DNA from: an uncultured Gammaproteobacteria bacterium
Lineage (GTDB): Bacteria; Patescibacteriota; Patescibacteriia; Magasanikbacterales; UBA922
Assembly: GCA_964522405.1 (NCBI GenBank)
Contig: CAZFTR010000008.1
Location: 1 to 49,802, forward strand
Reading direction: 5' to 3'
Length of the DNA: 49,802 bases
Shown: one piece after another, positions 13,401 to 49,802 of the stretch
How positions within the stretch are numbered: the stretch's first letter is position 1
How the letters are laid out: the number at the start of each line of letters is the position of its first letter
The notes under the pieces: generated by a model
The model's database searches: none
What the model saw: the letters and a program-made list of their open reading frames with translations, nothing else
What the model was told of the DNA's origin: nothing
Translations under genes and position numbers: made by a program

Positions 13401-16400
13401 ATATTGTGTTTCAGATGATCAGTGTGATGGTGATAACAATACTTGTAAACTTCTTGATCCACAAACTTGCTGGGATGAAGTTGATACTGAATTTATTTGT
13501 CCGGCATTTTCTCAAATTTATGAATATGAGTATGATTTGATGAATCAAGGTTATATTTTCCATGCTCCGCTTGAATTTTTCAATGAAAGTGATCAGATAA
13601 CTCAAGCATTTATTGACCCGGCTACTTTTACTAAAGAGCCATGGTGTGTGCAGGAAATTATAAATCCTTTTGATGATGTTTGTGGAAATGGTGTGGTTGG
13701 CGCTACAGAACAGTGTGATCCTCCGGGAAAAATAAGCTATGGAAATCAGACATCTATTGCTGAGCAAATTGGACAATGTGAAATTATAACTTCACAAGAG
13801 TGTATTAGTGGGCCGGCTGACTGTGGTTATGCATCTTTTGAGCCTGTAGGAAATACGTATTATCAGTCTTTTTCTAAAACTGTCTGCGGTCTTTTTGGTG
13901 ATTTTGGAGCACTAAACACTTATGCCCTTGATTTAGATAATTCAGAAACAGATAGTTCAATTTATGGATTAGTTTCCTGCAATTTTGGTCCTCATTGTTC
14001 AGATGCATCAAAATATCCTGAAGGGCCGATTCAATTTGGTTTAGGTGATGAAGCTGTAATTTTTAATACCAAAGAGGAATTGCAAGCATATTTAGATGAA
14101 AATCCACAGAATTGTTTGGTCTGGACATCTGGAGGGCAAGGTGCCATTGCCCAAGAATGTGTTGGTGGTGTTGTTGCAGGTTTTGAACAGTGCGCAGTCG
14201 GAGAAATAGCCACCCAAGCTTGTAATGATCAGTGTCAAATAGAATACGGACTATGTGAAGCAGCAGTAGCAGAGTGTGGAAATAGCATAGTAGAGCCGGG
14301 TGAAGCATGTGATGACGGATCACTCAATGGAACTTATGGAAATTGTGCTGGAGAAGGTAGTTTTGATCAAAATGGTGTGCCAATACCACCATGTCAGGGT
14401 CTTCATTCAGAATATTGTGGAAATGGAAAGCAAGACTGGAATGATATAAATCAAGATGGTGGTATAGATCCGGGTGAAGCACTTTATGAATTTTGTGATT
14501 GGTCAGCAGTTATAAATATCAATCCGGATCAGCCTAAATTTTATTCTGCACAAAAGGCACTATCTTGTTCTTGGAATTGTCAGGATTATGGACAGTATTG
14601 TGGAGATGGAATAGTACAAGATTTTTCAGGAGGAGAAGAATGTGATGATGGAAATTATGAAAATCTTGATGGCTGCAACCAAAATTGTAAATTGGAAAAT
14701 ATAGCCTGTAAAGCAAAAAATCCACTGTTTACTACAACCACACAACAAACTAATATTATTTTAACAGCAATTGATAGCAATCTTAATTATTCAGGAAATA
14801 TCAAAGAGTGTATTGTAGGTACTACAGGAGACCAGATTTGTGGAGCTTATGGATTGACTTGTGACAGTCTTAAAGAAATTAAATTATTAAGCCATGACCC
14901 AATTGCCTATTCTTTGGAAGGTCCAATTCTTACTCAAATAGGCGCAGATGTTTGTGAAATGGATTTGACTGGTTTTGGGCAGGCTCTGGTTCAAAAAGAA
15001 TTACTAGTTCAGTGTAATGGGGTTTATGAAGGTTCTCTAGTTGAGCCGGAATTACAAGTAGTGCCGGGTTGTGGAAATGGTCTTGTAGAGGAAGGATTGG
15101 GAGAGGCTTGTGATCTTGGTGATCAAAATGGTATTTCTTGTGATCCTGCTTATGGTGAATCATGTACCTATTGTTCAGTAGATTGTGGTGAGATTTTAAC
15201 CAAAGATTCAGGAGAATTTTGTGGAGATGGAGTGGTCAGCGGTCCGGAGATTTGTGAACAATTACCAGGCGGTTCTGTGCTTGACGCCACATCAGAAACT
15301 GTTAAAAATTATTGTGATGGTCAAGATTTAATTTGTCAGCAGGATTGTAATCCATATGATCAGAAATGGCCGCATGGAAAAGACAGTTTAAATTCTTGGG
15401 TGTGTACATCCTTCTTTGATCCTGGAATAAGAGTGAATGCTGTTTTTGCAAACGCTCCTACAGGTCCTGATAAATTATATGGATCAGTGTTAGGCGGTGA
15501 ATTTTCAGGTCAATATGTTAATTTTACTACTTTAAAAGCTTTTGAAGATTATGATGATCCACATAATGAAATTTGTAGTAAATTATTTACAGGAAACCAA
15601 AGCAGTGATTTAACTTATTTGGTAAATGAGTGTAATAGTCCTGATTCACCTTATTATGATTTTTGTGAAAATTTCAAAGACAAAATAACCAATACCAAAA
15701 CTTGTGAAGGCTGTGAGGTGGACTATGATTGGTGTATGTCCAGTAAACCTGCCCAAACTCTTACTTGCCCGGATATGGGAGAATACACTTGTTCTGATTC
15801 ATGTAATGCTATACAAAGCTCATGTGTGAGTTGTGGATTTTTCCTGGATCATCCGGATAGTTTTGTAACTATTGTAGACCCAATGCAAGATTATAGTATT
15901 ACCAGTAAGATGGCTCTAAAGCCTGTTGAATCATTTAAATTTGAATTTTTGGAAAATCAATTTGATGCTGAAGGTGGACTTTATGCAGTAGAAACAATTG
16001 CAAAGTTCAATACCAATGCTCAAGGACTTGAAGAGGTGCCAATGAGATATCATCTTGGGGTAGAAGATATTGGGCTTGAAACTGATATGCAATGTAATGG
16101 TCTATATTCAGTATTCTTCAATTCTGCAGAATTGGCTGGAAATCAGGGGATTAATTTTTCAGACACAGCTTGGTCAGCAGAAAAAGGTGATTTATTTGAA
16201 TATCCGGTAAACAATGAATTAAATCAGGTATATCATGAATATATTTACTCCAGACCGGTTCCACCGGATGTTTATCGAGTTATTATAAAATGGAATGATC
16301 AGCCATTGGAAAATGATACTAAATATATAGTGGCTAATTTATATAGCGATGAATTTCCTAATTCAGGAGAAGCTTCGATAAAAAGTTTTGTAGAGGCTGC

Positions 16401-30427: not shown

Positions 30428-30501
30428 GGACCGGTAGTTCAATTGGTTAGAGCACCGCCCTGTCACGGCGGAAGTTGCGAGTTCGAGTCTCGTCCGGTCC
30501 G
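30428..30501 (+). tRNA. tRNA-Asp(GTC), CCA not encoded
   Basis: Cloverleaf: GGACCGG/CCGGTCC acceptor, CCGCC-CTGTCAC-GGCGG anticodon arm, GCGAG-TTCGAGT-CTCGT T arm; upstream TG-C-TATAAT promoter. Confidence 0.97.
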
Positions 30502-30702
30502 CTTAATTAAAAAATTCGGCTTTAGCCGGATTTTTTAATTAAGTCTGGATCAGAGACGGGACTCGAACTGGGGGTGGTAGGGGGCGCAGCCCCCTACGTG
30601 CCGAGGAAAGTTCACGAAAACCCGAAGGTTTTCGTGGGAGGCCGAAGGCCGACGTGAGAGTCCTGGCCTTTGGCAAGGTTCTCGTCCGGTCCGCTTAATT
30701 AA
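30480..30702. repeat. tRNA-linked palindromic element: inverted copy of tRNA 3' half, three GC hairpins, then 23-bp direct copy of tRNA 3' end
   Basis: 30525-30569 is about the reverse complement of 30480-30520; TCTCGTCCGGTCCGCTTAATTAA at 30488-30510 and 30680-30702. Confidence 0.8.
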
Positions 30703-31634: not shown

Positions 31635-31719
31635 TTTCACGTTAAAAAAATTCGAATCACATTCTGTCGCTCCAACAGACCTGACTTCGCTTATTTTGGC
31701 GGAGTTTTTTATTGCAAAT

Positions 31720-32297: not shown

Positions 32298-32318
32298 TTC
32301 GAGTCTCGTCCGGTCCGC
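32298..32318 (+). repeat. 21-bp copy of tRNA-Asp 3' end (att-like site)
   Basis: TTCGAGTCTCGTCCGGTCCGC identical to 30482-30502. Confidence 0.85.
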
Positions 32319-33245: not shown

Positions 33246-33454
33246 ATATGTATGTTAATTTATTTTATTATTTAGACGAACTATACATTATATTTATTTT
33301 TTTGTAAAATGCTTGTGGGTAAATATTAAACAAAATGAGATGTATAGTTAAAAATCTTTTTTTGAAATATTTTATTTAAAGCTAGTTCATAAATACCTCA
33401 TTTGATTCTATTACATTAAAAAAAGTTCAAATTATGTTCATATGATTCCCACAA

Positions 33455-33488
33455 ATTTAAAAACAACCTATTTGGGTTGTTTTTAAAT
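33455..33488. terminator. Perfect 14-bp inverted repeat (terminator-like)
   Basis: ATTTAAAAACAACC-TATTTG-GGTTGTTTTTAAAT. Confidence 0.65.
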
Positions 33489-33598
33489 CCTCAATTGTTT
33501 CCTAAATTTTAGAAAAAAATAGTCGGGTTGTCGGGCGCAGTTCTCCAATTCTACGCCCGATTTCCCTTGCTTGCCAAGCTCCTTTCTCGGCATTAGTG

Positions 33599-34156
33599 TC
33601 AGTCGGTCGGCTCCGTCGCCGCCCGGGCCGTGTTCTCCATCAACTCCAGCATGCGCCGAAGCATGAGCTCGATGCGCCGCGTGGCCTTGGAGGCTTCCAT
33701 GGTCTCCTCGTCCATGCCTACCTTGAGCAGATCAGCGGAGTCGTAGACCGCCGCCGCGACGTAGAGAAAGCCGTAGATCGGGAGGATCACCGGCAGGCTC
33801 AGGGGGGCACTGAAGGCAGCCAAAGTCACAAGGGCGTAGATCCCGGAGACGAAACTGGTGAACATGGTCTTGGTGATGACCATGGCGCCTGTCTTGTGTC
33901 TCTTCGGAAGTGCCGCGTTGGTGATGACGAACCAGGCCAGGCCCGCGATCTGGGCCGCGATGGCCACAGCGCCAACGATCAGTTGGGTGGTGTCACTGCC
34001 GTACTTGGCTGCGATCACCGATCCCGGAAGCACGATCAGGCTCTGGAGCAGAACCTGCGCGTGCTTCTTGGTGTTCTCGTCGAGGGCGATGATGTCATCT
34101 TCGGTCGCCTTGGAGTACAGCGAAGCGAAGATGAGCTTCTTGAGCAGTTTTTCCAT
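33599..34156 (-). CDS. GC-rich 185-aa multi-pass (~4 TM) membrane protein of unknown function
   Basis: SD AAGGAGGG at 34172-34165, 8 nt before ATG 34156; G/C-ending codons; hydrophobic segments and helical C-tail. Confidence 0.8.
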   Translation of the reverse strand: MEKLLKKLIFASLYSKATEDDIIALDENTKKHAQVLLQSLIVLPGSVIAAKYGSDTTQLIVGAVAIAAQIAGLAWFVITNAALPKRHKTGAMVITKTMFTSFVSGIYALVTLAAFSAPLSLPVILPIYGFLYVAAAVYDSADLLKVGMDEETMEASKATRRIELMLRRMLELMENTARAATEPTD

Positions 34157-34204
34157 TGAAATCGCCCTCCTTGAGCGAGATTCGGGGTTGATTAGTTGAA
34201 CTGA

Positions 34205-34257
34205 ATTCATAGATGTTTTCAACACTTGAGCTGCAAGTCCTAGAAACATCTATGAAT
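34205..34257 (-). promoter_or_regulatory. Long 5'UTR hairpin of GC-rich unit 3
   Basis: ATTCATAGATGTTT/AAACATCTATGAAT 14-bp perfect stem enclosing ACTTG-AGCTG-CAAGT. Confidence 0.65.
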
Positions 34258-34297
34258 CAAAAAAGCAAGGGATAGTGATTAAAGAGCAGAATGAAGA

Positions 34298-34326
34298 AAT
34301 CTATCATAAAAAAGTTATATTGTCAA
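34298..34326 (-). promoter_or_regulatory. Sigma70 promoter of GC-rich unit 3
   Basis: TTGACA-17-TAGATT with extended TG. Confidence 0.7.
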
Positions 34327-34376
34327 GATGATCAAATAATTAATTGCCTTTAATAAGCCTTTTTCCACTTTAAAAT

Positions 34377-34402
34377 AAAAAAGAGCCTTTCAGCTCTTTT
34401 TT
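34377..34402 (-). terminator. Intrinsic terminator after 99-aa gene
   Basis: AAAAAAGAGC-CTTTCA-GCTCTTTTTT. Confidence 0.75.
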
Positions 34403-34419
34403 AAATCTTTCTATACAAA

Positions 34420-34719
34420 CTAATTATATTTCTCATCATCCCAATTCTCAGAATCTGCCAGAAGTTCAGCAGCATAGGCCTTAGCTTCAGCCTCTTGATT
34501 TGCTTCAAAACTTCTGGTAGTTGGAACATAACTTAGATAATCAAAACCGTCATCTGCTGCTGGCTCACCATGAGCTGACACTTCATATTTGCCACCATCC
34601 AAATCAATTTTTACAAATACAGAACCTTCTGCTCCCCGGTCTTTCCAGGTTTGGGGCGCGTCTTTTTTTTCTGAAGTAGAAATTTCAATCCTTTGTCCTT
34701 CTCTTGTTGGGTCTGCCAT
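34420..34719 (-). CDS. Acidic hypothetical protein (99 aa)
   Basis: Promoter TTGACC-16-TATAAT (34777-34750), terminator and host-like codons. Confidence 0.7.
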   Translation of the reverse strand: MADPTREGQRIEISTSEKKDAPQTWKDRGAEGSVFVKIDLDGGKYEVSAHGEPAADDGFDYLSYVPTTRSFEANQEAEAKAYAAELLADSENWDDEKYN

Positions 34720-34783
34720 ATTTTTTATATTTAATAATTAACTATTCTAATTATACAATATAGCTGAAAAAGGTCAATTATAG

Positions 34784-35248
34784 TTATCTATAGCCAAGTT
34801 TGATCTTTAAATCCTTCAACCTAGCATAAAATCCAGCAGTGTGAATAGAATTTAAACCTAGCTTCTCATGATCATAGTGATGCATCCATTCATGGACCAG
34901 AGTATCAAAAAAAGTTTTCGAAGCTAGAATTTGACCTCTTACTGCAGTTCTATTATTTATATAAATATATTTGGATTGCGGACGATAATATCCATATTGC
35001 TTGAAAGCAACCCGGTTTTGGCGTTTGTTATGATATTGATTTTTGTCAGAAATTTTAAGTTTAACAATTCCAATTCTTGCTAAATCACCAAGCTCATCAA
35101 GAAGTTCGGTTCCAATAGATTGCCTGGATTCAAAACCAAGTTTTGAGCCAAGCAGAGTAGAGGATAGCTCAAGAGCCCTCTCAGAAATAGGAAATTTAAC
35201 TTTCATTATTCTGTTGCTCCTGTTGTAGTTTAATTTCTTAAAAAACAT
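34784..35248 (-). CDS. SprT-like/zincin HExxH metalloprotein
   Basis: TLVHEWMHHYD...HTAGFY motif; start could be 35248 or 35206. Confidence 0.75.
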   Translation of the reverse strand: MFFKKLNYNRSNRIMKVKFPISERALELSSTLLGSKLGFESRQSIGTELLDELGDLARIGIVKLKISDKNQYHNKRQNRVAFKQYGYYRPQSKYIYINNRTAVRGQILASKTFFDTLVHEWMHHYDHEKLGLNSIHTAGFYARLKDLKIKLGYR

Positions 35249-35287
35249 AGACCTCCATTATACCATCTTTTTTTTAATTAAGGCGAG

Positions 35288-35525
35288 CAATGCGATTGCC
35301 GAATTTCACTATGAGGACCTTTTTTTATTTTTCATGATTTGTATTAGTTGTATGTGAGTCTGTAGTATAAAGACAGATGAGACAATCCGCAGTCCCCTTG
35401 TTGCTGCTGAAAGCAGAGCAACAAGAGAGACGAGGACGGCGAAGCTGTTTTTATACTACAGACTCACCCTAGACTCTGATCATGAAAAATAAAAAAAGGT
35501 CCTCATAGTGTCCGGCAAAGCATTG
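35288..35525. repeat. ~240-bp nested palindrome
   Basis: 32-bp perfect IR 35307-35338/35479-35510; 23-bp IR 35354-35376/35445-35467 (one mismatch); inner CTTGTTGCT/AGCAACAAG. Confidence 0.9.
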
Positions 35526-35588
35526 GGAGCGAAGGAGGGGGCGCTCCCGCTTCAAACCAGACACTACGAAGACCTTTTGAATTTTTAA
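35491..35588 (-). ncRNA. Candidate ~100-nt hairpin sRNA with anti-SD loop (CCCCCUCCUU)
   Basis: Perfect promoter upstream; 22-bp basal stem with 3 G-U pairs valid only on the minus strand; GGGAGCG/CGCUCCC apical stem; ends in U7. Confidence 0.7.
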
Positions 35589-35594
35589 TATATA

Positions 35595-35623
35595 ATTATA
35601 GCAGATATTAAGGCTTTTGTCAA
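35595..35623 (-). promoter_or_regulatory. Consensus sigma70 promoter of candidate sRNA
   Basis: TTGACA-17-TATAAT with extended -10 TG. Confidence 0.85.
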
Positions 35624-35636
35624 GCCTCTAAATATC

Positions 35637-35981
35637 TTATTTAACAGCTTCAACAATTTTTTTGAATACCTTTGGTTGATTTTCAGCAATATCAGCTAGG
35701 ATTTTTCTATCCAAGTCAATATTTTTTTTCTTCAAACCACCAATAAATTTACTATAATTTGTACCAAGATCACGAACAGCAGCATTTATTTTCACTTGCC
35801 AAAGAGCTCTTCTGGTTCTTTTCTTAACTTTTCTATCTTTGTAGGCATGTGCTCCAGCTTTGGTATCGGCTGTTTTAGCGAGCTTGATAAGTTTTCTACG
35901 TCCACCTTCAAAACCTTTTACCCTCTTCATCAGAGATTTACGCTTTTTTAGGTGTTGGGTTCCTCTTTTTACTCTAGGCAT
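35637..35981 (-). CDS. rplT: 50S ribosomal protein bL20
   Basis: MPRVKRG...KGF.G, AY.DRKVKKR..R.LW..INAA, YSKFI, LDRKILAD. Confidence 0.97.
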   Translation of the reverse strand: MPRVKRGTQHLKKRKSLMKRVKGFEGGRRKLIKLAKTADTKAGAHAYKDRKVKKRTRRALWQVKINAAVRDLGTNYSKFIGGLKKKNIDLDRKILADIAENQPKVFKKIVEAVK

Positions 35982-41573: not shown

Positions 41574-44500
41574 ATGCCTACTTCAGGAGAACAATTACAA
41601 AGAGAGAAGTTTGAGGCTGCTAAAATGGAAGTGCAGAAGTTGCATAGGGCACTACAAGATAGCATAGATGATGCAGAAGCTTTTAGAGCTATTTTTTTGG
41701 ATTTAGTTGGTGAAGATCTAAATGAAAAATTTGGATTTTTTATGGTTGGTTTTGGTTCTAAACTCGAGTCCCATGTTAGGCGTTCTGAAACCCATCCACA
41801 AATTTTTAAATCTAAGCGTAATAGAGAGTTGATGCTCAGCGCTGTTAAAGCTTATGTGGGTTTAAGTTTTGAAGATGCCCAGAAAATGGCCTCTACAGCT
41901 GTGCCTGGAAAAGCTTTAGAAACTTCTGAATCGGAACCAGATGGTCCTGCTGGTGGAAAAACCACCAAGGAAAAAGAACCCAAAGATCCAGAACAAGAAA
42001 AAAAAGAACTATTGCAGAAAATAAAGGCAGAATGGAGTAGTGTTTCTTCAGATATTGGATTTGCTGTAACCATAGACCAAGAAAAAGAATGGACACTTGA
42101 AGATCTAAAGATGCTTGAGGGGCAAGCACAAATCATGTCAGATATATATAGTAGCGAGCTCGGCACTCTTGTAAAAGCAGAACCAAAAAACAAGCCAGTA
42201 ATTTATCTGCACAGAGCCAGTCACGAGGCGGGTGTTTATAATTTAACATCAGGAGGAAATATTGAATTTACAGTTTCAGAAGGTTGGCAAGATCGATTTA
42301 AGGAGATAGCCATGAAATATGCCAAATGGGCTAGAGAAATAAGGCGTAAAATTGAAGACGAATACAAAACTACTCATTTTGTTAAGTTGCATAGAGCAGA
42401 AGAGTGGACTGCTCAAGACTTGGGGAGTGTAGAAGACCAGACTGCCATGATTGAAAGACTTAGTAATCAAATTTTTGGTGGAACAACAGTAAAAAGAGCA
42501 TTACCTCTAAAAAAATCTAATGTAAAATTGCATATACATCCAAGTACCAGTACAGTGAGAACAGAAATTAAATCCAAAAATGTACACTTTTCATTGGCTG
42601 ATAGTAATTTAAATGAAACAGAATTAAGTGCAATTTTTAGAAAATACCGAGATGATGCGAGAGCAGAAGCCGGCATGGACCCATATACTGAAGAAGAAGA
42701 AAAAGTTGAACCTTTAGAAGAAAAACGTCGAAGAATAGAAACAAGTTACCGAGATAATTTCGGAGGAGTTACCATAAGAGACATTGAACAGTGGACAGAC
42801 GAAGATTTATCAAGAATTGATGGGCAGTCACCACATGCCAGATATGCTTATGATACTGTCAGGTCGAGCGTTGGTGTTTTTAGTAGTGCGCCCAAAGTAA
42901 AAATTGATCTTTTCCCTCCTTCTTCATCTGAAACAAGTGGTTTAATCAAAGAAGGAGATAAATATATAATAAAATTAGTAGTTAGTGGAGATGATTGGGT
43001 ACTTGGAGAATTGAATGTTTATTTGGAGCAATATAAAGATGCAGTTTCAGGAGGCACTGAAGCAAAAGTAGTGCCTAGTGCACCAAAAGCAGAAAAAGGA
43101 GATGTTGTTGATGTAGATAAATTGAAACCTGGGACTTATGAGTTGGTAGATGGGGCTGGTGAGACTAAGAAACTTTCTTCTTCAGAAAAAATAAGAGGAG
43201 CTATAGAAAAGTTGCAAGCAAAGTATCCAATTTTGGATTTTGCTTTTGCAGGCTCAGATGTTGCATGGGGAGGATTTGATTTTGAAAGATTTGAAAGCGA
43301 AAAAGTGGCACAACATATTTTAGAGGTTCTTGCTGTAAAAATGGATGCAGTTCCAGATTCTCATCAGATTGAAAAAGTATATATTTATCCTCCCCAAGTT
43401 TCCTTGCCAGCTGCGGCGATGATTTCAGCTGGTAAAACAATTACCATGAAAATGGGTGATGGTTGGGAGGGAAGGTTTGACGATTCTGTTGATGCTTACC
43501 TGGTGTCAATCATAGATGAGATTGCACCTTTAACTGAACAGGAAGTGGAAAGTCGAAAAGCAGCAATGGTAGCAGAATATCCAAAGTTGCGCTTCGGAGA
43601 TAGTCAGGTTGGTTTTGAGGAGTCTGAATTTAGAATGATAGCGAGGCCAGAAGTTGCAAGAGCATTGGCAAGAATTTTTGAAGAATTGGATGAATATGTT
43701 GAAGCTGTGGTTATAAGACCAACCGCAGAGTCAAATAAAGCACAAATATTGATGACAGGTAGCGGCAAGGCAAATGTTATGATCCCTTCAACAAAAAATT
43801 GGCAACAAGCAGCGCTTGAAATGTCAGCAAATTTAGCAGCGCTTACTGGTCATGAAAGTGTTAGAAGGAGAAGGGCTATGGTCGCTGCTTTTCCAATTGT
43901 AGATACTGGAGCTCCATCTGCAAGAGCTCGAGCTGATCAAGCACCTGAAGCCGCACCTATTTCACCTCCTACAGTAGCAGAAGACTTAACATCAACATTA
44001 GATGAAACGCCAGAGGCGCCAGCTACACCACCAATTTCACCTCCATCTGCTGAAGCCGCTCCAGAAGTAGAAAAGCCATTGACAGAAAAAGAAAGAGAGC
44101 AGATGATCATGGATATTTTTTGGCCTATATGCCCTCTTTTAAATGATAATCTTGAAACACTAACAGACAAACAATTTTCTGCTTTTGTTACCAAAGAAAA
44201 TGCTCAGAAAATGAAGGATATTTTTAGAGAAGTCCAAAAGAAAATGGGTGCCATATTCATATATGCAGACACAACTCATACAGTTAATTTTTTCCCAGAT
44301 ACATTTTTAGGGGAGTTTGATGTGCAATTACAGTTATCAACCTGGGAGGCAGATGCAAAAAGACTTGCTGAAGAGATAAAAGTGGCTGAGCTTCCGAAAG
44401 TTGTTAAGCCTGTTCGTGCGCCAGCTGCTAAACCTACATCATCTACTCCTCGTCCAGAGTCTGCATCTTGGCTTGACGCAGGTTTTCTTGGTTCATCAGT

Positions 44501-47500
44501 TGAAACAGGCGCAGCTTCTTCGGAAATGGCCCCATCAGACGCTCCTGATTCTTCTTCGGCTAGACCTGAAATAACCCCTGCAATAGAAGCAGAGAAAGAG
44601 CTAACCAACGAAGAGAGAGATGCTCTCTTGGATCAGATGACAACTTGGTATCCAAAAATTGGGTTTAATAGAGAGTTGGTACATGACAAAGATAGAAAAT
44701 ATTATATTTCTGATCAAGATTTGCAAAATGTGTTCACAGAAGAAAATGCTAAGAAAATAAAAGATGCAGTATCTCCAGTTGAAAATTTTGTAGATCGAAT
44801 TGCTATTGATTCAAGTGAAAGTTTGGTAAGTCCTATTGGAGATACGATCTATCTTAATGTTAAGACTTGGGAAGAGGATTTACCGGGATTAGTGGCAGAA
44901 GTAGCCGGGATTGCAGATGCTGAAGCTAAAGCTTCGGAAGCGCCTGTTCCGCCACCACCTCCAGAAGCTTCGTCTCTCCCATTACCTTCATTTGCTCCAC
45001 CTCCAGAAGCTCCACCATCTTCGGAGCTAGTTCCACCACCACCAGAAGCAGAAAAAGAATTAACTAAAGAACAAAGGAATGCTCTCTTAGATCAGATGGA
45101 GGTTTGGTATCCAAAAATTAATTTCAGTAGAAGTAATGTTAACAATAAACCAGATGAAGGTTATGTTTCTGACCAAGATTTAATAGCTTTTGCAACAGAA
45201 GAAAATGCTACGAAAATACAAAAATTAGTATCTGAAGTAGAAGACCATTTGAGAGAGATTAAATTTGATTCACGTGATAGTGGATTGGATTCCTCGGGTA
45301 GTGTTTTATTTCTCAATATAAAAACTTGGGAAGAGGATTTGCCAAGATTGGTTGCACAGGTAGCCGGGACTGCAGAGGCTGAAGCTAGAGCTTCGGAAGC
45401 GCCTGTTCCGCCACCACCTCCAGAAGCTCCATCTGCTCCAGAAGCTAAATCCGTCGAAGAAGTTCGTGATCCTTTATTCGAAGAAGCAGTAACAATTGTC
45501 AGAGAAAATAAAAATCCAAGCATTTCATATCTGCAAAGAAGATTAAAGATTGGTTATCAACGTTCAGCAAGAATCATAGAACAAATGGAAAAAGCCGGGA
45601 TTATATCTAGACCCGACGATAAAGGTAGACGACAGATTTTTGATGAGGGAGAAAAAGCAAAAGTTGATCTGGCAGTATCTGAAAAAAAACCTGAAAAATT
45701 ATTTGATATAAGCACAGTTTATGACAAGCTTAGTTTTAGGCCTGCTCATCTTAATAGAGATATACACAATAGGACAACCTTAGAGGATCCTGTTGAAGAG
45801 GATGTTAGAAAAGATTTTGCCACAAAGGAAAATGCCCAAAAAATAAAAGAAGCTTTTGCAGAAGTAGATGAATATATCGGTTATATTCTTATTGTGAATA
45901 GCACGGAAGGTACAAGTTTTAAGACTAAGCAAAGAGAGGCAGATAAATGGAATGTTTTTCTTAATATCAATTCTTGGCAAGAGGATTTATCAAGTTTAGT
46001 AGAAAAAATAAAAGAAGAAATAGCAAAGATTGCAACAGTTTCACCTCCGGTCGCCGAAGCGCCTGCCCCACCAGAGGCTCCATCAGCTCCTGATCCAGAT
46101 ACGCAATTAGAAGAAACGGATTTTGGCTCTCTTCTTGAGGATTCATATCATGACTTGACACCTCCACCAGAAGAATCAAGTCCTGACATTGATTTGGATT
46201 TTGATTTGGTGGATAGTCTTTCTGTTGATGAAACACCACCACCTTCACTTAGACCAGAAGCGCCCCCTTCTCCAAGTCGATTACCAACACCAGAAGCTGA
46301 GCCGTCTGAAGATAGTTTAACCACAGAACAACGTTACTTATTAATGGGTCAACTTCAGGTTTGGTACCCTAAAATTTCTTTTTATGGTAGAGAGGCAAAT
46401 ACACCTGGTGACGCTAATTACATAACCGATCAAGAACTTACAGCTTTTGCCACAGAAGAAAATGCTAGAAAATTGCAAGAAATTTTTGCAGAATCAGAAG
46501 ATTCTATTTTGAAAATTTTTATTATTTCCAGTCAAATTACTAGTGATAGCTCAGTCTTTTTTGGACAAGCTCATATATATTTAAATATAGATACTTGGGA
46601 AGCAGATGCTCGTGCAATTGCAGCAGATATTGAAGCTGAGGTTGGTTCGATGCATGTCTTAAATCCTTTGGATATTCCTCCGGAAAGAGTTGAATTTGAA
46701 GGTGAGCTTACAAAAAGGCAGAGAGAGGATCTAAAAGTACGTATGGTCGGTTGGAATAATAAAGTTAGATTTGAGACTGCAATGAGAGGTGATGCGGATA
46801 TATCTGATCTTGAGTTAGTAAATTTATGTACAGAAGAAAATGCAGAGAGATTAAATAGAATATTTAGTGGTATCATTGATAGAATAGATTTTATTCAATT
46901 TGATACTGGCAGATTTACTTATTTTGGAGGAACAAGTTCAAGGAATAACAAGGTCTATTTAGTGGCTGATGAAAATTGGTTTGAAAGAGCACAAGAACTT
47001 GCAGCGCAGATTAGAAGAAAGGCTGGCTTTCTTCAAATACCTACGGGTGAAACTGGGCATGACAGAAATAAAAGAGAAAAACGTGAATCCTATTTTAACA
47101 AAATGGAGGTAGGTACTGCCAGTGTAGAAATGATTCAAAAAGCAAATTTTTGGACAGATGAAGCTCTTGAGACTTTCTGCACAGATCAGAACTTAACAGC
47201 GATAACTGATTTTGAAGCTGCAAGAGTAGGCGATGATCGCATGGCAGATTTATTGGAAGGAATTAGTGTCATTGCTCCAGATGATGATTGGGCAGATGAG
47301 TCAAGACTTGATGTTAATTTTGATGAGCATCGTCCATATAAAATAATTCTCAAAGCAGGAGATGATATCTCAGCAAAGCTTACAGAATATCAAAGTCATA
47401 TAGCGCGTTTAGAAACAGAAGAGGTTCAGCCAAGGATGGAGAGGGTTAGAAGAATTTTTGAAATGCATGATACTGATTCTAATATTAGTTTTTTTGACAC

Positions 47501-49802
47501 CAATTCACGTGGTTGGGCATTTTCTCAAATTGAGCAATTTCAGCAAGCTCTCAGATCAGGAGAAGTTGAGTCCATTATTCAAGAAGTTTTAGGAGATGAT
47601 AGAAGGCTTTTTGAAGGTCAAATGTCAGTTTTTCCTACTGGTCAGATTGCTGATGCTTCTATCTATGACGGTGGGTATATGTCAATTTCTTTTTCTCTTG
47701 GTAGCGAAGAAGGTTGGCAAGACAATCTTAGATCTTCACTTCAAGAATTAAAAGATCAGTTAAATAGTGATAGAAATAGAGTAGGTGTAAAAGCAGCTCG
47801 TAGAAAATTAGCCAGAACAATGAGGCAGGAAGCAAAAGCAGATGCTAAAAAAACTACAGCCAAATTTCCAGAGGAAATTGGTAGAGGTGGTGAAGTGGTA
47901 GAAGTAGATCAAACAAGCAAAGAGATGAAAGCATACCGAGAGTCACAAAAAGCCTACGCAGCTGTCATTGAACAGATTAATAGTCTTAGATTTGGTGGTG
48001 TGCGTCTTAGAAGAGAGAGAAAAGAATTACAAGAATTATTAGATTTGGTTGGAGAGACTAGATATGCCATGTCAGCTCATCTTCTGGCTCCAAGACTTCT
48101 TGAATTTGATCGAAAGGTTGAAGAAATTATTGCCAGGCTCGAAGGAGTTTCAAGAGAAGATATATATGGAGTAGGTCCACAGGCGCTTAGAAAGAAGACA
48201 GTTCGTGGACGAATGGGTCAGGTTTTGGCTGCTGAAAGAGTTCCAAAAACCACAAAGCAGATTAGAGAGGAAGCAGCCCAGCGCACAACACTTGAGCCAA
48301 AACCAACTATTGGCCAAACAATGGCAGAAGCAGCAAAGGCAGCTGCAGCTGCCACAGCAGCTGCCACAGAAAGAGGATTAGAAAGAGCAGGCGATGCAGC
48401 GGCTGATAAATTCGAAAGAGATTTGAGAGAGACTAAGAGAAGACAAAAAAGAAGAAAACAAGAGTGGCCTGAAAAAGCTAGAGATGCCAAAGAGTGGACT
48501 GGAGAGAAGGCTGTGGCAAGCTGGAAAGGTCTTACATCATTTTTATCCAGAGAAAAGAAAAAAGCAGAGGAAGAATCTGGAGATAGTGGGGCAGAAGTTC
48601 CTACTCCGGTAGAGTCTACAGAAGAGTCCACTTCATTTGCAGACAGATTAGCCAGGCTTCGTGCTAGAATGCAAGAACGCGGTCCTGTTGTACTTCCTCC
48701 TGCTGGTGAGGGGGAGGATGAAGAAAGAGCAGCTGCAATACGCGCCAGACTTCAAGCATTAAGAGGGAGAACTGAACAGCGTGATCCTTTTGCTGTAGCA
48801 CTTGAAGATGGCTATGAAGAAGCAGAAGGAGATCAAGCAGAGGAAGAAGATGATGTTGATGAAAGAGCAGCCATACGCGCCAGACTGGAAGCCTTAAGAA
48901 GAAGATCTGCAGAAACTGGGCCGGAGGAAATGGATGATGCGGGAGTTGAACCGGAAGAAGTGGTTGATGCAGAAGATGAAGACGCTCCTCAAGAAAGAGG
49001 TGGGCTTTTTGGTGATATTGCCAAGTCTTATAGACGAGCCACAGCTAGAGAAGAGGTTGAAATAAGCGATTCTCCTTTGCCGACAGAGCCGGACGAGTCA
49101 GAAAGTAAGAAAAAAGGACCATCGACAGAAAAAGAAAGAAAAGATAGAAGAAATATGGTGATTGCAGGAACTGCCGGATTAACAGCGCTTGCAGGCGGTG
49201 TAATTACTTATCTAGTACTAAAGTCTAGAGCGCGAGAAAAAGAAAAAAGAGAAGCCCAAAGAAGATTGGAAGAACAAATTAGAAGACAGCAAGAAGAAAA
49301 AGAAAAAAGAGAAGCAGAGAGAGAAAGGGATTTGAGAGCTGTGTGGGATACTAGAGAGAAAGCAATTGCTCAAATTATGGTTGCCCACGGTGAAGCAGTG
49401 ATTGAAAAAGGTGATCAGTTTGCCATATCAGATGCAAAAGCACTGATGCACAAAATAAAGCAGGCTGCCATTCGAGATGCTATGTACTATGCATGGGAAC
49501 CTATACATTTAGTTAATTATTTAAATAATTTAATTGATAATAAATCACTTCCGCCACCTTCTTGGTTAAATGACCTAAATATAAACGAAATAGTATATTT
49601 TAATGATATGGATAATTTTACGGAATTTGTTGTGACTAAGCATGGGGCAAATTCAGTAAAAGTTAATCATCAGGGAAAGGTACATTTCTTTTATCATCAG
49701 AATCATGAATTTAATCCCACACTGGAAGGTGGTATAGTAGGAAGGCTGATAGCGGAAAAAGGTCAGGAACCTAGAGAATTTAAGCCTGTTTTTGTTAGGA
49801 TT
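41574..49802 (+). CDS. Giant repeat protein (>=2743 aa, truncated by window end) with embedded FtsK-gamma domain and one TM helix
   Basis: ATG 41574 (MPTSGEQLQREK..), 2 nt after the previous stop; frame open at every segment I translated and at the window end (..EFKPVFVRI); absent from the ORF track, consistent with no stop. Confidence 0.9.
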   Translation, partial: MPTSGEQLQREKFEAAKMEVQKLHRALQDSIDDAEAFRAIFLDLVGEDLNEKFGFFMVGFGSKLESHVRRSETHPQIFKSKRNRELMLSAVKAYVGLSFEDAQKMASTAVPGKALETSESEPDGPAGGKTTKEKEPKDPEQEKKELLQKIKAEWSSVSSDIGFAVTIDQEKEWTLEDLKMLEGQAQIMSDIYSSELGTLVKAEPKNKPVIYLHRASHEAGVYNLTSGGNIEFTVSEGWQDRFKEIAMKYAKWAREIRRKIEDEYKTTHFVKLHRAEEWTAQDLGSVEDQTAMIERLSNQIFGGTTVKRALPLKKSNVKLHIHPSTSTVRTEIKSKNVHFSLADSNLNETELSAIFRKYRDDARAEAGMDPYTEEEEKVEPLEEKRRRIETSYRDNFGGVTIRDIEQWTDEDLSRIDGQSPHARYAYDTVRSSVGVFSSAPKVKIDLFPPSSSETSGLIKEGDKYIIKLVVSGDDWVLGELNVYLEQYKDAVSGGTEAKVVPSAPKAEKGDVVDVDKLKPGTYELVDGAGETKKLSSSEKIRGAIEKLQAKYPILDFAFAGSDVAWGGFDFERFESEKVAQHILEVLAVKMDAVPDSHQIEKVYIYPPQVSLPAAAMISAGKTITMKMGDGWEGRFDDSVDAYLVSIIDEIAPLTEQEVESRKAAMVAEYPKLRFGDSQVGFEESEFRMIARPEVARALARIFEELDEYVEAVVIRPTAESNKAQILMTGSGKANVMIPSTKNWQQAALEMSANLAALTGHESVRRRRAMVAAFPIVDTGAPSARARADQAPEAAPISPPTVAEDLTSTLDETPEAPATPPISPPSAEAAPEVEKPLTEKEREQMIMDIFWPICPLLNDNLETLTDKQFSAFVTKENAQKMKDIFREVQKKMGAIFIYADTTHTVNFFPDTFLGEFDVQLQLSTWEADAKRLAEEIKVAELPKVVKPVRAPAAKPTSSTPRPESASWLDAGFLGSSVETGAASSEMAPSDAPDSSSARPEITPAIEAEKELTNEERDALLDQMTTWYPKIGFNRELVHDKDRKYYISDQDLQNVFTEENAKKIKDAVSPVENFVDRIAIDSSESLVSPIGDTIYLNVKTWEEDLPGLVAEVAGIADAEAKASEAPVPPPPPEASSLPLPSFAPPPEAPPSSELVPPPPEAEKELTKEQRNALLDQMEVWYPKINFSRSNVNNKPDEGYVSDQDLIAFATEENATKIQKLVSEVEDHLREIKFDSRDSGLDSSGSVLFLNIKTWEEDLPRLVAQVAGTAEAEARASEAPVPPPPPEAPSAPEAKSVEEVRDPLFEEAVTIVRENKNPSISYLQRRLKIGYQRSARIIEQMEKAGIISRPDDKGRRQIFDEGEKAKVDLAVSEKKPEKLFDISTVYDKLSFRPAHLNRDIHNRTTLEDPVEEDVRKDFATKENAQKIKEAFAEVDEYIGYILIVNSTEGTSFKTKQREADKWNVFLNINSWQEDLSSLVEKIKEEIAKIATVSPPVAEAPAPPEAPSAPDPDTQLEETDFGSLLEDSYHDLTPPPEESSPDIDLDFDLVDSLSVDETPPPSLRPEAPPSPSRLPTPEAEPSEDSLTTEQRYLLMGQLQVWYPKISFYGREANTPGDANYITDQELTAFATEENARKLQEIFAESEDSILKIFIISSQITSDSSVFFGQAHIYLNIDTWEADARAIAADIEAEVGSMHVLNPLDIPPERVEFEGELTKRQREDLKVRMVGWNNKVRFETAMRGDADISDLELVNLCTEENAERLNRIFSGIIDRIDFIQFDTGRFTYFGGTSSRNNKVYLVADENWFERAQELAAQIRRKAGFLQIPTGETGHDRNKREKRESYFNKMEVGTASVEMIQKANFWTDEALETFCTDQNLTAITDFEAARVGDDRMADLLEGISVIAPDDDWADESRLDVNFDEHRPYKIILKAGDDISAKLTEYQSHIARLETEEVQPRMERVRRIFEMHDTDSNISFFDTNSRGWAFSQIEQFQQALRSGEVESIIQEVLGDDRRLFEGQMSVFPTGQIADASIYDGGYMSISFSLGSEEGWQDNLRSSLQELKDQLNSDRNRVGVKAARRKLARTMRQEAKADAKKTTAKFPEEIGRGGEVVEVDQTSKEMKAYRESQKAYAAVIEQINSLRFGGVRLRRERKELQELLDLVGETRYAMSAHLLAPRLLEFDRKVEEIIARLEGVSREDIYGVGPQALRKKTVRGRMGQVLAAERVPKTTKQIREEAAQRTTLEPKPTIGQTMAEAAKAAAAATAAATERGLERAGDAAADKFERDLRETKRRQKRRKQEWPEKARDAKEWTGEKAVASWKGLTSFLSREKKKAEEESGDSGAEVPTPVESTEESTSFADRLARLRARMQERGPVVLPPAGEGEDEERAAAIRARLQALRGRTEQRDPFAVALEDGYEEAEGDQAEEEDDVDERAAIRARLEALRRRSAETGPEEMDDAGVEPEEVVDAEDEDAPQERGGLFGDIAKSYRRATAREEVEISDSPLPTEPDESESKKKGPSTEKERKDRRNMVIAGTAGLTALAGGVITYLVLKSRAREKEKREAQRRLEEQIRRQQEEKEKREAERERDLRAVWDTREKAIAQIMVAHGEAVIEKGDQFAISDAKALMHKIKQAAIRDAMYYAWEPIHLVNYLNNLIDNKSLPPPSWLNDLNINEIVYFNDMDNFTEFVVTKHGANSVKVNHQGKVHFFYHQNHEFNPTLEGGIVGRLIAEKGQEPREFKPVFVRI
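45468..45641 (+). other. FtsK gamma (winged-helix, KOPS-reading) domain within the giant ORF, aa ~1299-1356
   Basis: DPLFEEAVTIVRENKNPSISYLQRRLKIGYQRSARIIEQMEKAGIISRPDDKGRRQIF. Confidence 0.88.

What the first reader, a model, noticed from the sequence alone, without database searches (positions are those of the whole stretch)
33520..34326. GC unit 3: membrane-protein mRNA with the same end-pairing design and a hairpin-presented SD
Seen on the minus strand: 5'UTR UCCCUUGCUU (34272-34263) is exactly complementary to AAGCAAGGGA (33572-33563), 26 nt past the stop. A UCGGGCGUAG/CUGCGCCCGA hairpin follows, the same order as in unit 1 although the sequences are unrelated. The leader also has a 14-bp hairpin, and the SD sits in UCGCUC-AAGGA-GGGCGA with AAGGA in the loop. 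That loop fits both a CsrA/RsmA-type site and a kissing target for the sRNA loop (8-nt complement AAGGAGGG/CCCUCCUU). Inference: a tightly repressed membrane-active effector or toxin.
Basis: partly seen in the sequence, partly recalled or inferred. Interest (0 to 1): 0.75.

Follow-up and report, generated by a model that had tools for sequence, protein, structure and literature searches.

The report
GC-rich membrane gene, mRNA ends pair
A small, unusually GC-rich gene for an unknown membrane protein in an ultra-small marine bacterium is built so that the start and the end of its messenger RNA can base-pair, a layout seen more often than chance in this genome's GC-rich genes, but nothing marks it as a repressed toxin.

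Summary
The sequence features are real. Window 33513-34326 (-) is a self-contained unit: sigma-70-like promoter, ~135-nt leader with a strong hairpin, AAGGAGG, a 185-aa ORF (34156-33599), a GC hairpin and U7.

An exact 10-nt complement links the leader (34272-34263) to the 3' UTR (33572-33563), 2 nt before the terminal hairpin. This is the geometry of the proven B. subtilis hbs 5'/3'-UTR interaction.

Among 105 GC-rich ORF units of this 1.2-Mb, 37%-GC genome, 10 have a flank complement at least this strong. Controls predict 2.2-2.5 (P about 1e-4 to 1e-3). The arm sequences differ between units, which favours RNA pairing over a recombination site.

Against: 0 of 8 orthologous loci keep such pairing. 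A relative's 307-kb contig shows 0 of 29. AT-rich native genes also show a weaker excess. No RNA data exist.

The "hairpin-presented SD" is no better than chance (23 of 200 shuffles). CsrA is absent. The sRNA-loop match is generic anti-SD (rank 34 of 1196).

The protein is a four-helix membrane protein of an unnamed CPR family (142 clusters). In relatives the gene lies by dnaA-dnaN. Nothing indicates a toxin.

The scan reported end-pairing GC-rich cassettes before, in other CPR genomes.

The parts
34376..34403 (.). Bidirectional terminator-like hairpin that ends the upstream 99-aa ORF (34420-34719, -). It marks unit 3 as a separate transcription unit.
   Evidence: I5, 11-bp perfect arms; terminator-like site
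34298..34326 (-). Sigma-70-like promoter TTGACA-17-TAGATT with a TG before the -10 box (10 of 12 matches). Predicted start near 34291.
   Evidence: consensus match only, no RNA data
34263..34272 (-). 5' arm of the end pairing (UCCCUUGCUU). It starts 25 nt after the -10 box and is unpaired in the local leader fold.
   Evidence: (I10)
34205..34257 (-). Leader hairpin of about 22 bp in three coaxial stems, A+U-rich.
   Evidence: I1; -24.5 kcal/mol, z -5.8, 0 of 200 shuffles
34162..34178 (-). Small hairpin with AAGGA in the loop. The SD AAGGAGG lies at 34172-34166. The hairpin is not distinguishable from chance.
   Evidence: z -1.25, 23 of 200 shuffles; pair probability 0.0 in the full transcript
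33599..34156 (-). CDS of 185 aa plus stop (ATG at 34156). GC 0.61, GC3 0.85. Four-helix membrane protein of an unnamed CPR family (P0001).
33563..33572 (-). 3' arm of the end pairing (AAGCAAGGGA). It lies 26 nt after the stop and 2 nt before the terminal hairpin.
   Evidence: I10; 9 of 10 pairs at p >= 0.88 in the 779-nt fold
33525..33566 (-). GC-rich 3' hairpin: a 10-bp stem at 33560-33531 plus an outer GGG/CCC.
   Evidence: I12; (-21.3 kcal/mol, z -5.4)
33513..33519 (-). U7 run, 5 nt after the extended stem. Probable end of the transcript. The scan did not call it a canonical terminator.
   Evidence: (not listed)
33455..33488 (.). Second, canonical bidirectional terminator hairpin (14-bp perfect arms). 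Back-up end of the unit.
   Evidence: I3
35491..35623 (-). Neighbouring candidate small RNA: a perfect TTGACA-17-TATAAT promoter (35623-35595) and a 98-nt hairpin with a C-rich anti-SD-like loop. Its link to unit 3 is not specific.

Best explanation
**What it is.** Unit 3 is an ordinary-looking, independently transcribed single-gene unit. It encodes a conserved four-helix inner-membrane protein of unknown function from a family restricted, as far as seen, to CPR bacteria. It is one of about 100 sharply bounded GC-rich units in a 37%-GC genome.

**How it most likely works.** The mRNA is built so that a 10-nt stretch near its 5' end pairs with a 10-nt stretch just upstream of its terminator hairpin, closing the message into a loop. 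By analogy with B. subtilis hbs, this closure most likely limits access of RNase Y and the 5' exonuclease RNase J to the leader and so sets the mRNA's lifetime.

**Shown here**
- The gene, its family and its membrane topology class.
- The complement, the two strong hairpins, and the excess of such complements among GC-rich units.
- Presence of RNases Y, J and III, and absence of RNase E/G and CsrA.

**Inferred**
- The transcript ends.
- That the pairing forms in the cell.
- That its effect is stabilisation rather than repression.
For: **The unit and its pairing**
- Promoter, leader, SD, ORF and hairpins.
- Duplex energy is -15.4 kcal/mol.
- In a fold of the whole predicted 779-nt transcript, 9 of the 10 pairs have probability 0.88-1.0 and the helix is in the MFE.
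- The same holds for 6 of 6 other end-complementary units folded.

**Excess among GC-rich units (105 tested)**

| Score | Observed | Permuted partners | Same-locus reverse / complement controls |
|---|---|---|---|
| >=25 | 10 | 2.2 expected | 3 and 2 |
| >=26 | 6 | 1.2 expected | 2 and 0 |

- Sources. Poisson P is 1e-4 to 1e-3.
- With 100-nt flanks outside the longest ORF, 10 of 105 units score >=24 against 1.5% of permuted pairs.
- In this window 2 of 4 GC-rich ORF units score >=25 (P = 0.0025).

**Geometry and arm sequences**
- The arms have a different sequence in each unit.
- 3' arms start 5-61 nt after the stop in 13 of 13 units scoring >=24.
- In the 6 of 13 units with a promoter-like site within 120 nt, the 5' arm starts 5-59 nt after the -10 box.
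- Longer examples: about 26 bp at C7:9168-9860 and 16 bp at C4:29476-30009.

**Other support**
- In a paralogous pair the leader is 97.6% identical while the CDS is 79.4%.
- The genome has RNase Y, RNase J and RNase III and lacks RNase E/G.
- Protein: 6 homologs at 51-58% identity; 142 clusters at 50% identity with E <= 0.001; 13 invariant columns in 14 sequences; AF2 model pLDDT 89.8, all helical.
Against: - **No conservation.** In 8 orthologous loci (L003, L004, L005, L009-L013), no helix of 8 bp or more links a true 5' UTR with the 3' UTR. The only strong hits, in L005, are the upstream and downstream terminators. L003 has only three 8-bp helices with G-U pairs.
- **No replication.** In a relative's 307-kb contig, 0 of 29 GC-rich ORF units reach score 24, with 0.35 expected by chance. 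P = 0.055 if the rate were as in this genome.
- **Not specific to GC-rich units.** 118 AT-rich single-gene-like ORFs show a weaker excess: 5 observed against 1.5 expected at >=25, mostly A+T-rich matches. Part of the signal may be a locus effect.
- **This unit is at the threshold.** Unit 3 scores 25 exactly. About 2 of the 10 units at that level are expected by chance.
- **No comparative test for the best cases.** The three strongest end-paired units have no homolog in 106 other family genomes.
- **No RNA evidence.** Start and end of the transcript rest on consensus matches. Global folds of 779 nt are unreliable.
- **The effect is inferred.** Stabilisation rests on analogy only.
Confidence: 0.5

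Rival explanations
1. Chance complement. Unit 3 is simply a GC-rich accessory membrane-protein gene with a structured leader and a terminator. The 10-nt match has no function.
For: - The per-unit chance of a match this strong is 2-3%, and about 2 of the 10 observed are expected by chance.
- It is not kept in 0 of 8 orthologous loci.
- 0 of 29 units show it in a relative.
- AT-rich genes show some excess too.
Against: - There is a 4-fold excess over three kinds of control.
- 2 of 4 units in this window carry such a match.
- The arms sit in the unpaired 5' segment and directly before the terminal hairpin, the hbs geometry.
- The helix is predicted at p >= 0.88 in the full-length fold.
Confidence: 0.3
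2. The end pairing is real but acts negatively, as in S. aureus icaR. The closed mRNA is a poor template or an RNase III substrate, which keeps the protein low.
For: - RNase III is present.
- In two other units the 3' arm is complementary to the SD itself (C2:111306-111713 and C12:27601-28434).
- The icaR precedent: abstract of PMC3868564 read.
Against: - In unit 3 the 5' arm lies about 90 nt upstream of the SD, so it cannot mask it.
- A 10-bp helix is short for RNase III.
- Promoter and SD are near consensus.
Confidence: 0.1
3. One reading: a tightly repressed membrane toxin or effector whose SD loop is held by CsrA/RsmA or by kissing with the 35588-35491 small RNA.
For: - It is a small hydrophobic protein.
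- The 8-nt complement to the RNA loop exists, and unit 3 is in the top 3% of predicted partners.
- There is a weak sub-threshold Pfam hit to SpoIISA_toxin (E = 0.11, 12.7 bits against a cut-off of 27).
Against: - No CsrA gene was found.
- The SD hairpin is not above chance.
- 33 of 1196 start regions pair with the loop at least as well, and the 8-mer occurs 22 times.
- The family is conserved, with 142 clusters, and lies beside dnaA-dnaN and a TrmB-like regulator in relatives.
- No defence or toxin family was matched at E <= 0.01 by P0001, and no family by more than 3 of 14 members.
- No adjacent partner gene is seen.
Confidence: 0.05
4. A DNA-level feature. The inverted repeats are ends of a mobile cassette, or sites of an invertible (phase-variable) segment that flips the ORF away from its promoter.
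For: - The unit lies in a variable interval next to tRNA-Asp with three att-like repeats.
- Both flanking ORFs are orphans.
- The gene is at another place than in relatives.
- Inverted repeats bracket the ORF but not the promoter.
Against: - The arms differ in sequence in every unit, which one site-specific recombinase could not serve.
- The 5' arm lies in A+T-rich leader, about 75 nt outside the GC-rich block, so the arms do not mark the compositional boundary.
- Contigs of independent studies show only the window's orientation, with 0 differences. Contigs drop rare variants, so this is weak.
- No recombinase gene is seen nearby.
Confidence: 0.05

Closest known systems
B. subtilis hbs mRNA 5'/3'-UTR long-range interaction (Braun, Durand, Condon 2017, PMC5737220; abstract and section 16 read)
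   Same: - A fully complementary stretch links the 5' UTR to the 3' UTR of the same monocistronic mRNA.
- The 3' arm lies directly upstream of the terminator hairpin, and the 5' arm lies next to a leader hairpin.
- The SD is strong.
- The organism has RNase Y and RNase J and lacks RNase E/G.
   Different: - The pairing is 10 nt (-15.4 kcal/mol) rather than 14 nt (-19 kcal/mol).
- The 5' arm is upstream, not downstream, of the leader hairpin.
- There is no experimental proof and no conservation in orthologs.
- The layout recurs in unrelated GC-rich genes of one genome instead of being a single case.
S. aureus icaR 3'-UTR/SD pairing (Ruiz de los Mozos et al. 2013, PMC3868564; abstract read)
   Same: [quoted passage not shown]
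   Different: In unit 3 the pairing does not touch the SD. The icaR 3' UTR is long (over 100 nt), whereas here the 3' arm is 26 nt after the stop.
Compositionally atypical acquired genes, or phage-'moron'-like promoter-ORF-terminator units (kind recalled; named also in earlier scan notes e1-1198326 and e1-1023867)
   Same: A sharply bounded GC-rich block (0.61 against 0.36) with its own promoter and terminator, set among orphan genes near a tRNA gene.
   Different: The family is native to CPR bacteria. It is also GC3-rich in 4 AT-rich relatives (L004, L005, L009, L010) and above background even in the GC-rich genome L003, while 3 copies (L011-L013) are AT-like. In L005 and L010 the GC3-rich copy sits at a site near dnaA-dnaN that is syntenic with the AT-like copy in L013. 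A simple recent import that will ameliorate does not predict this.

Membership tests
hbs-type 5'/3'-UTR long-range interaction | Contiguous Watson-Crick complement between the 5' UTR and 3' UTR of one mRNA | tested here: met
   10 of 10 nt, -15.4 kcal/mol. The UTR limits are predicted only.
hbs-type 5'/3'-UTR long-range interaction | 3' arm immediately upstream of the terminator hairpin, and 5' arm beside a leader hairpin | tested here: met
   The 3' arm ends 2 nt before the hairpin 33560-33531. The 5' arm ends 5 nt before the leader hairpin.
hbs-type 5'/3'-UTR long-range interaction | RNase Y / RNase J decay machinery in the organism | tested here: met
   RNase_Y_N at 107 bits, RNase_J_C at 109 bits, and no RNase E/G match.
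hbs-type 5'/3'-UTR long-range interaction | Pairing forms in vivo and alters cleavage or half-life (compensatory mutants) | not testable with these tools
   No RNA run holds the stretch. Only in-silico pair probabilities of 0.88-1.0 are available.
hbs-type 5'/3'-UTR long-range interaction | Pairing maintained in orthologs (covariation) | tested here: not met
   0 of 8 orthologous loci have a UTR-to-UTR helix of 8 bp or more with at most 2 G-U pairs, apart from weak ones in L003. Those UTRs are unalignable, so this lowers but does not exclude a lineage-specific function.
icaR-type 3'-UTR anti-SD repression | 3' UTR motif complementary to the SD region | tested here: not met
   The 5' arm at 34272-34263 lies about 90 nt upstream of the SD at 34172-34166.
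CsrA/RsmA-regulated leader | CsrA-family protein encoded by the organism | tested here: not met
   PF02599 gives 0 matches in G000 (completeness 100). The control genomes E. coli, B. subtilis and T. maritima ring.
CsrA/RsmA-regulated leader | GGA motif presented in a hairpin loop overlapping the SD | tested here: inconclusive
   The hairpin exists locally but is not better than chance: 23 of 200 shuffles, z -1.25.
Membrane toxin of a toxin-antitoxin pair, or defence effector | Match to a known toxin or defence family, or an adjacent cognate partner | tested here: inconclusive
   Pfam SpoIISA_toxin at E = 0.11 is below cut-off, and PADLOC JukA is at E = 0.027. No overlapping or adjacent small partner ORF is visible. 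Foldseek found no PDB match at E <= 0.001, and the best VIA Z of 7.7 is generic for helical bundles.
Intrinsic (Rho-independent) terminator | GC-rich hairpin followed directly by a U run | tested here: inconclusive
   The hairpin is strong (z -5.4), but U7 starts 12 nt after the 10-bp stem, or 5 nt after the extended stem. The scan did not list it. A canonical terminator follows at 33488-33455 (I3).
Invertible DNA segment / mobile cassette with terminal inverted repeats | Shared repeat sequence recognised by a recombinase, and both orientations present in populations | tested here: inconclusive
   The arms differ in every unit. Only one orientation is seen in contigs from 4 runs, but contigs hide rare forms. 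Inverted junctions were not searched.

The most novel reading that the evidence does not exclude
The GC-rich units of this and related CPR genomes are a class of 'armoured' messages. In this reading, a near-consensus promoter, 5'/3' end pairing, a G+C-rich coding body poor in the A+U-rich single-stranded sites preferred by RNase Y, and a strong terminal hairpin together give very long-lived mRNAs. Selection for that RNA property, not recent import, would then keep these genes GC-rich in AT-rich genomes. The C-rich-loop small RNA next door would act as a shared anti-SD brake on the G-rich SDs of this class.
Probability: 0.12. Interest if true: 0.8.

Novelty: new variant of a known kind. Interest (0 to 1): 0.45.

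Why it matters
**Known cases are few.** Pairing between the two ends of a bacterial mRNA is known from a handful of single genes, such as hbs and icaR.

**What would be new.** Here the same layout recurs, with unrelated sequences, in about ten unrelated GC-rich genes of one tiny genome. Earlier notes of this scan report it in other CPR genomes. If real, it is a general expression design of ultra-small bacteria. It could also help explain the puzzle of genes that stay GC-rich in AT-rich genomes.

**Not found in print.** Two full-text searches found no paper on this:
- 'Candidate Phyla Radiation' + UTR + 'long-range interaction' gave 0 papers.
- Patescibacteria / GC-rich / horizontally acquired / codon usage (at least 3 of the 4 terms) gave 44 papers; none of the 8 listed holds the word Patescibacteria or concerns this.

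**For unit 3 alone** the value is modest. It is one more example, plus a conserved but unnamed membrane-protein family whose usual place beside dnaA-dnaN invites study.

Tried and rejected
- **RNA evidence.** No RNA holder is listed for 33400-34450.
- **Strain variation for covariation.** Contigs from 4 runs of 2 further studies are identical to the window, with 0 differences. They only show that both GC/AT junctions are bridged independently: X5 record 5 and X3 record 3 across the 5' side, X6 record 8 across the 3' side.
- **RNAduplex on long flanks**. Energies were dominated by long gapped duplexes (observed median -21.9 against control -20.8, Mann-Whitney P = 0.13). I replaced this measure with contiguous matches.
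- **Plain match length without base weighting**. 13.3% observed against 13.2% control at 10 nt or more, because A/T runs swamp the count.
- **Orthologs of the three strongest end-paired units.** None were found in 106 other family genomes.
- **Empty-site comparison.** Both flanking ORFs are orphans. The TrmB-like neighbour of relatives has no close ortholog in G000 (best 27% identity).
- **Metagenome scan.** It returned only L003's own contig again and one locus with 29 nt upstream.
- **Function of the protein.**
  - No Pfam or PADLOC family above threshold.
  - Ten longer family members (376-473 aa) have no Pfam domain.
  - Foldseek gave nothing at E <= 0.001.
  - VIA-wide best Z was 7.7, in the range its own note calls common for helical bundles.
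  - ESM Atlas best score was 0.78, below its lead threshold.
- **Rfam.** Nothing was found in 33300-35700 except one chance-level row at E = 0.76.
- **Inverted-orientation junctions.** I did not search for them. That needs a junction sequence not present in the window, plus raw reads.
- **Integron cassette.** Rejected: the unit has its own promoter, there is no array, and there is no shared attC-like site.
Full report
**Setting.** The window is the whole 49,802-nt contig C8 of a 1.218-Mb, 34-contig genome with 36.7% G+C, scored 100% complete. It belongs to the same family as the record titled Candidatus Magasanikbacteria bacterium GW2011_GWA2_56_11, which is L003 = G045. Its DNA occurs in seawater metagenomes of three studies. 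The genome holds 108 non-overlapping ORF units with GC >= 0.55 and GC3 >= 0.62; a few of them are false ORFs over rRNA. Earlier notes of this scan already described these GC-rich cassettes in other pieces of this genome.

**The observation.**
- On the minus strand there is a promoter-like TTGACA-17-TAGATT with an upstream TG at 34326-34298. It lies after the terminator hairpin of the preceding ORF at 34403-34376.
- The 10-mer at 34272-34263 is the exact complement of 33572-33563 (I10). The latter starts 26 nt after the stop.
- The leader hairpin 34257-34205 folds at -24.5 kcal/mol, and the 3' hairpin 33566-33525 at -21.3 kcal/mol. Both are far better than shuffles: z -5.8 and -5.4, with 0 of 200 shuffles as good in each case.
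- The small SD hairpin at 34178-34162 is not better than shuffles (z -1.25, 23 of 200). It has pair probability 0.0 when the whole predicted transcript is folded.

**Is the end complement more than chance?** I scored the best contiguous Watson-Crick match (A-T = 2, G-C = 3). The 5' window ran from -150 to at most +100 around the longest-ORF start. The 3' window ran from the stop to +100. This was done for 105 GC-rich units.

| Score | Observed | Expected, permuted partners | Same-locus controls |
|---|---|---|---|
| >=24 | 13 | 4.2 | reverse 6, complement 4 |
| >=25 | 10 | 2.2 | reverse 3, complement 2, direct repeats 5 |
| >=26 | 6 | 1.2 | reverse 2, complement 0 |
| >=30 | 2 | 0 | reverse 0, complement 0 |

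- Unit 3 scores 25.
- Poisson tails are 1e-4 to 2e-3. The value is 1.1e-3 at >=25 when a paralogous pair is counted once.
- With 100-nt flanks outside the ORF, 10 of 105 units score >=24 against 1.5% of permuted pairs.
- Unweighted length showed nothing, because A/T runs dominate: 13.3% against 13.2% at 10 nt or more.
- RNAduplex on long flanks was uninformative.

So roughly seven or eight units carry a non-chance complement, and a given unit at score 25 has about a three-in-four chance of being one of them.

**Geometry.**
- The arms have a different sequence in each unit.
- All 13 3' arms start 5-61 nt after the stop.
- In the 6 of 13 units with a promoter-like site within 120 nt, the 5' arm starts 5-59 nt after the -10 box; for unit 3 the distance is 25 nt.
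- Longer duplexes exist. C7:9168-9860 has about 26 bp with one bulge, directly before the SD of a lipoprotein gene. C4:29476-30009 has 16 bp starting at the predicted 5' end.
- In two units the 5' arm is the SD itself.
- Unit 1 of this window has the same order as unit 3. Two of the window's four GC-rich ORF units score >=25 (P = 0.0025).
- In full-length folds the arms pair with probability 0.88-1.0 for 9 of 10 pairs in unit 3. The core pairs are near 1.0 in 6 of 6 other units folded, though some outer pairs are lower, down to 0.34.
- Unrelated sequences in a shared geometry argue for an RNA structure rather than a recombinase site.
- A paralogous pair of units keeps its leader at 97.6% identity while the coding part has drifted to 79.4%.

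**Evidence against.**
- None of eight orthologous loci keeps a UTR-to-UTR helix of 8 bp or more. The strong hits in L005 are its flanking terminators, and L003 has only three weak 8-bp helices.
- A relative's 307-kb contig gave 0 of 29 units at >=24. The power is low: P = 0.055 if the rate were the same.
- 118 AT-rich, single-gene-like ORFs also show an excess, with 5 observed against 1.5 expected at >=25. The matches are mostly A+T-rich. Part of the signal may therefore be a local-sequence effect.
- The strongest units are orphans in 106 other family genomes, so covariation cannot be tested.
- No RNA run holds the stretch.
- The DNA contigs of other studies are identical to the window.

**The protein.**
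- The ORF from ATG 34156 encodes 185 aa. Homologs support this start rather than the upstream ATG at 34249.
- Six proteins share 51-58% identity.
- A profile of 14 sequences finds 142 clusters at E <= 0.001, including forms of about 380-470 aa with an extra C-terminal part that matches no Pfam family.
- Thirteen columns are invariant. By my reading of the hydrophobic segments and the basic loops, they lie on the cytoplasmic face. This is an inference.
- The AlphaFold model is confident (pLDDT 89.8) and all-helical. It has no specific match among solved structures.
- No Pfam, PADLOC or Atlas lead reaches significance.
- In relatives the gene lies in the order dnaA, dnaN, a TrmB-like regulator on the other strand, this gene, and later a penicillin-binding protein.
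- In the window's genome the single copy sits elsewhere, among orphan ORFs.

| Copy | Gene GC3 | GC of rest of locus |
|---|---|---|
| Window's own copy | 0.85 | 0.36 |
| L003 (GC-rich genome) | 0.84 | 0.55 |
| L004, L005, L009, L010 | 0.58-0.75 | 0.36-0.41 |
| L011, L012, L013 | 0.29-0.43 | 0.39-0.41 |

(All values.) This fits the earlier notes on persistently GC-rich genes better than it fits a one-off recent import.

**The proposed regulators.**
- CsrA is absent.
- The neighbouring RNA at 35588-35491 has a perfect promoter and a -54.5 kcal/mol hairpin whose 10-nt loop is C-rich.
- Its complement to the SD is largely the SD/anti-SD consensus. AAGGAGG occurs 92 times and AAGGAGGG 22 times in the genome, 4 of these in SD position.
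- Unit 3 ranks 34th of 1196 crude ORF starts for pairing with the loop.
- Many of the better partners are other GC-rich units. This is a lead for that RNA, not evidence of a specific link to unit 3.

**Mechanism.**
- The genome has RNase Y, RNase J and RNase III but no RNase E/G. This is the B. subtilis type of decay machinery.
- In B. subtilis hbs, a 14-nt 5'/3'-UTR pairing placed just upstream of the terminator restrains RNase Y cleavage in the leader. This was shown by compensatory mutations (PMC5737220, abstract and section 16).
- Unit 3 has the same layout with 10 nt. I therefore take closure of the message, limiting decay from the 5' side, as the most likely role (confidence about 0.5 that the pairing is functional; less for this particular effect).
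- An icaR-like negative role (PMC3868564, abstract) is less likely for unit 3, because the SD is not covered.

**Verdict.** The finding is real and part of a recurrent design, but ordinary in gene content. The toxin and CsrA reading is not supported. The scan has reported the same design in other CPR genomes (e1-1359129, e1-1286266, e1-1166254, e1-1137265, e1-4919756). I did not check those notes.

Noticed in passing
window 30488-30502, 30680-30694, 32304-32318 (+): There are three direct copies of the last 15 nt of tRNA-Asp, and 0 of 100 shuffles give 3. The third copy extends to about 21 nt. They look like att scars of integrations at the tRNA. The 1.6-kb segment between copies 2 and 3 holds an EamA-like ORF and GC unit 2. 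No integrase is seen nearby.
   Followed up: partly
window 31651-31673 (+): A fragment resembling the T-arm and acceptor 3' end of another tRNA sits in the same variable interval.
   Followed up: no
window ~35348-35455; also C5:64743-64849, C2:53053-53138, C11:4686-4761 and others: A palindromic element of about 80-107 nt has 11 further partial copies in the genome at 78-92% identity. It looks like a MITE/REP-type repeat.
   Followed up: no
window 35491-35623 (-): A perfect TTGACA-17-TATAAT promoter drives a 98-nt hairpin RNA (-54.5 kcal/mol, z -9.2) with a C-rich anti-SD-like loop, directly after rplT. There is no Rfam match. Many of its best predicted partners are SDs of GC-rich units.
   Followed up: partly
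G000 C1:159484-160011 and C1:160447-160962 (-): Two neighbouring paralogous lipoprotein-like GC-rich units. The leader is 97.6% identical over 170 nt, the CDS 79.4%, and the 3' 130 nt 86.9%. The non-coding flanks are kept better than the protein.
   Followed up: partly
G000 C7:9168-9860 (-) and C4:29476-30009 (+): These are the strongest end pairings in the genome: about 26 bp with one bulge, and 16 bp. Both genes have no homolog in 106 other genomes of the family.
   Followed up: partly
L005 ~2890-2930 and ~3590-3620: In the ortholog's locus, the upstream and downstream junctions repeat the same 'terminator stem + T run + TTGACA' module in direct orientation. It looks as if promoter-ORF-terminator units are stacked head to tail there.
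   Followed up: no
L005 (= G106:C2): The public record is titled 'uncultured Gammaproteobacteria bacterium'. However, the same contig (same length, same position of the match) belongs to a genome that the genome search places in the window's own CPR family. This is probably a mislabelled MAG.
   Followed up: no
window 33504-33531 and 33453-33480: A 28-nt direct repeat at 75% identity. The tail after unit 3's GC hairpin resembles the first half of the next, canonical terminator 51 nt downstream (D1).
   Followed up: no
window 4480-16992 (+) and 41574-49802 (+): Two giant ORFs, one of 4170 aa and one of more than 2743 aa that is open at the contig end.
   Followed up: no
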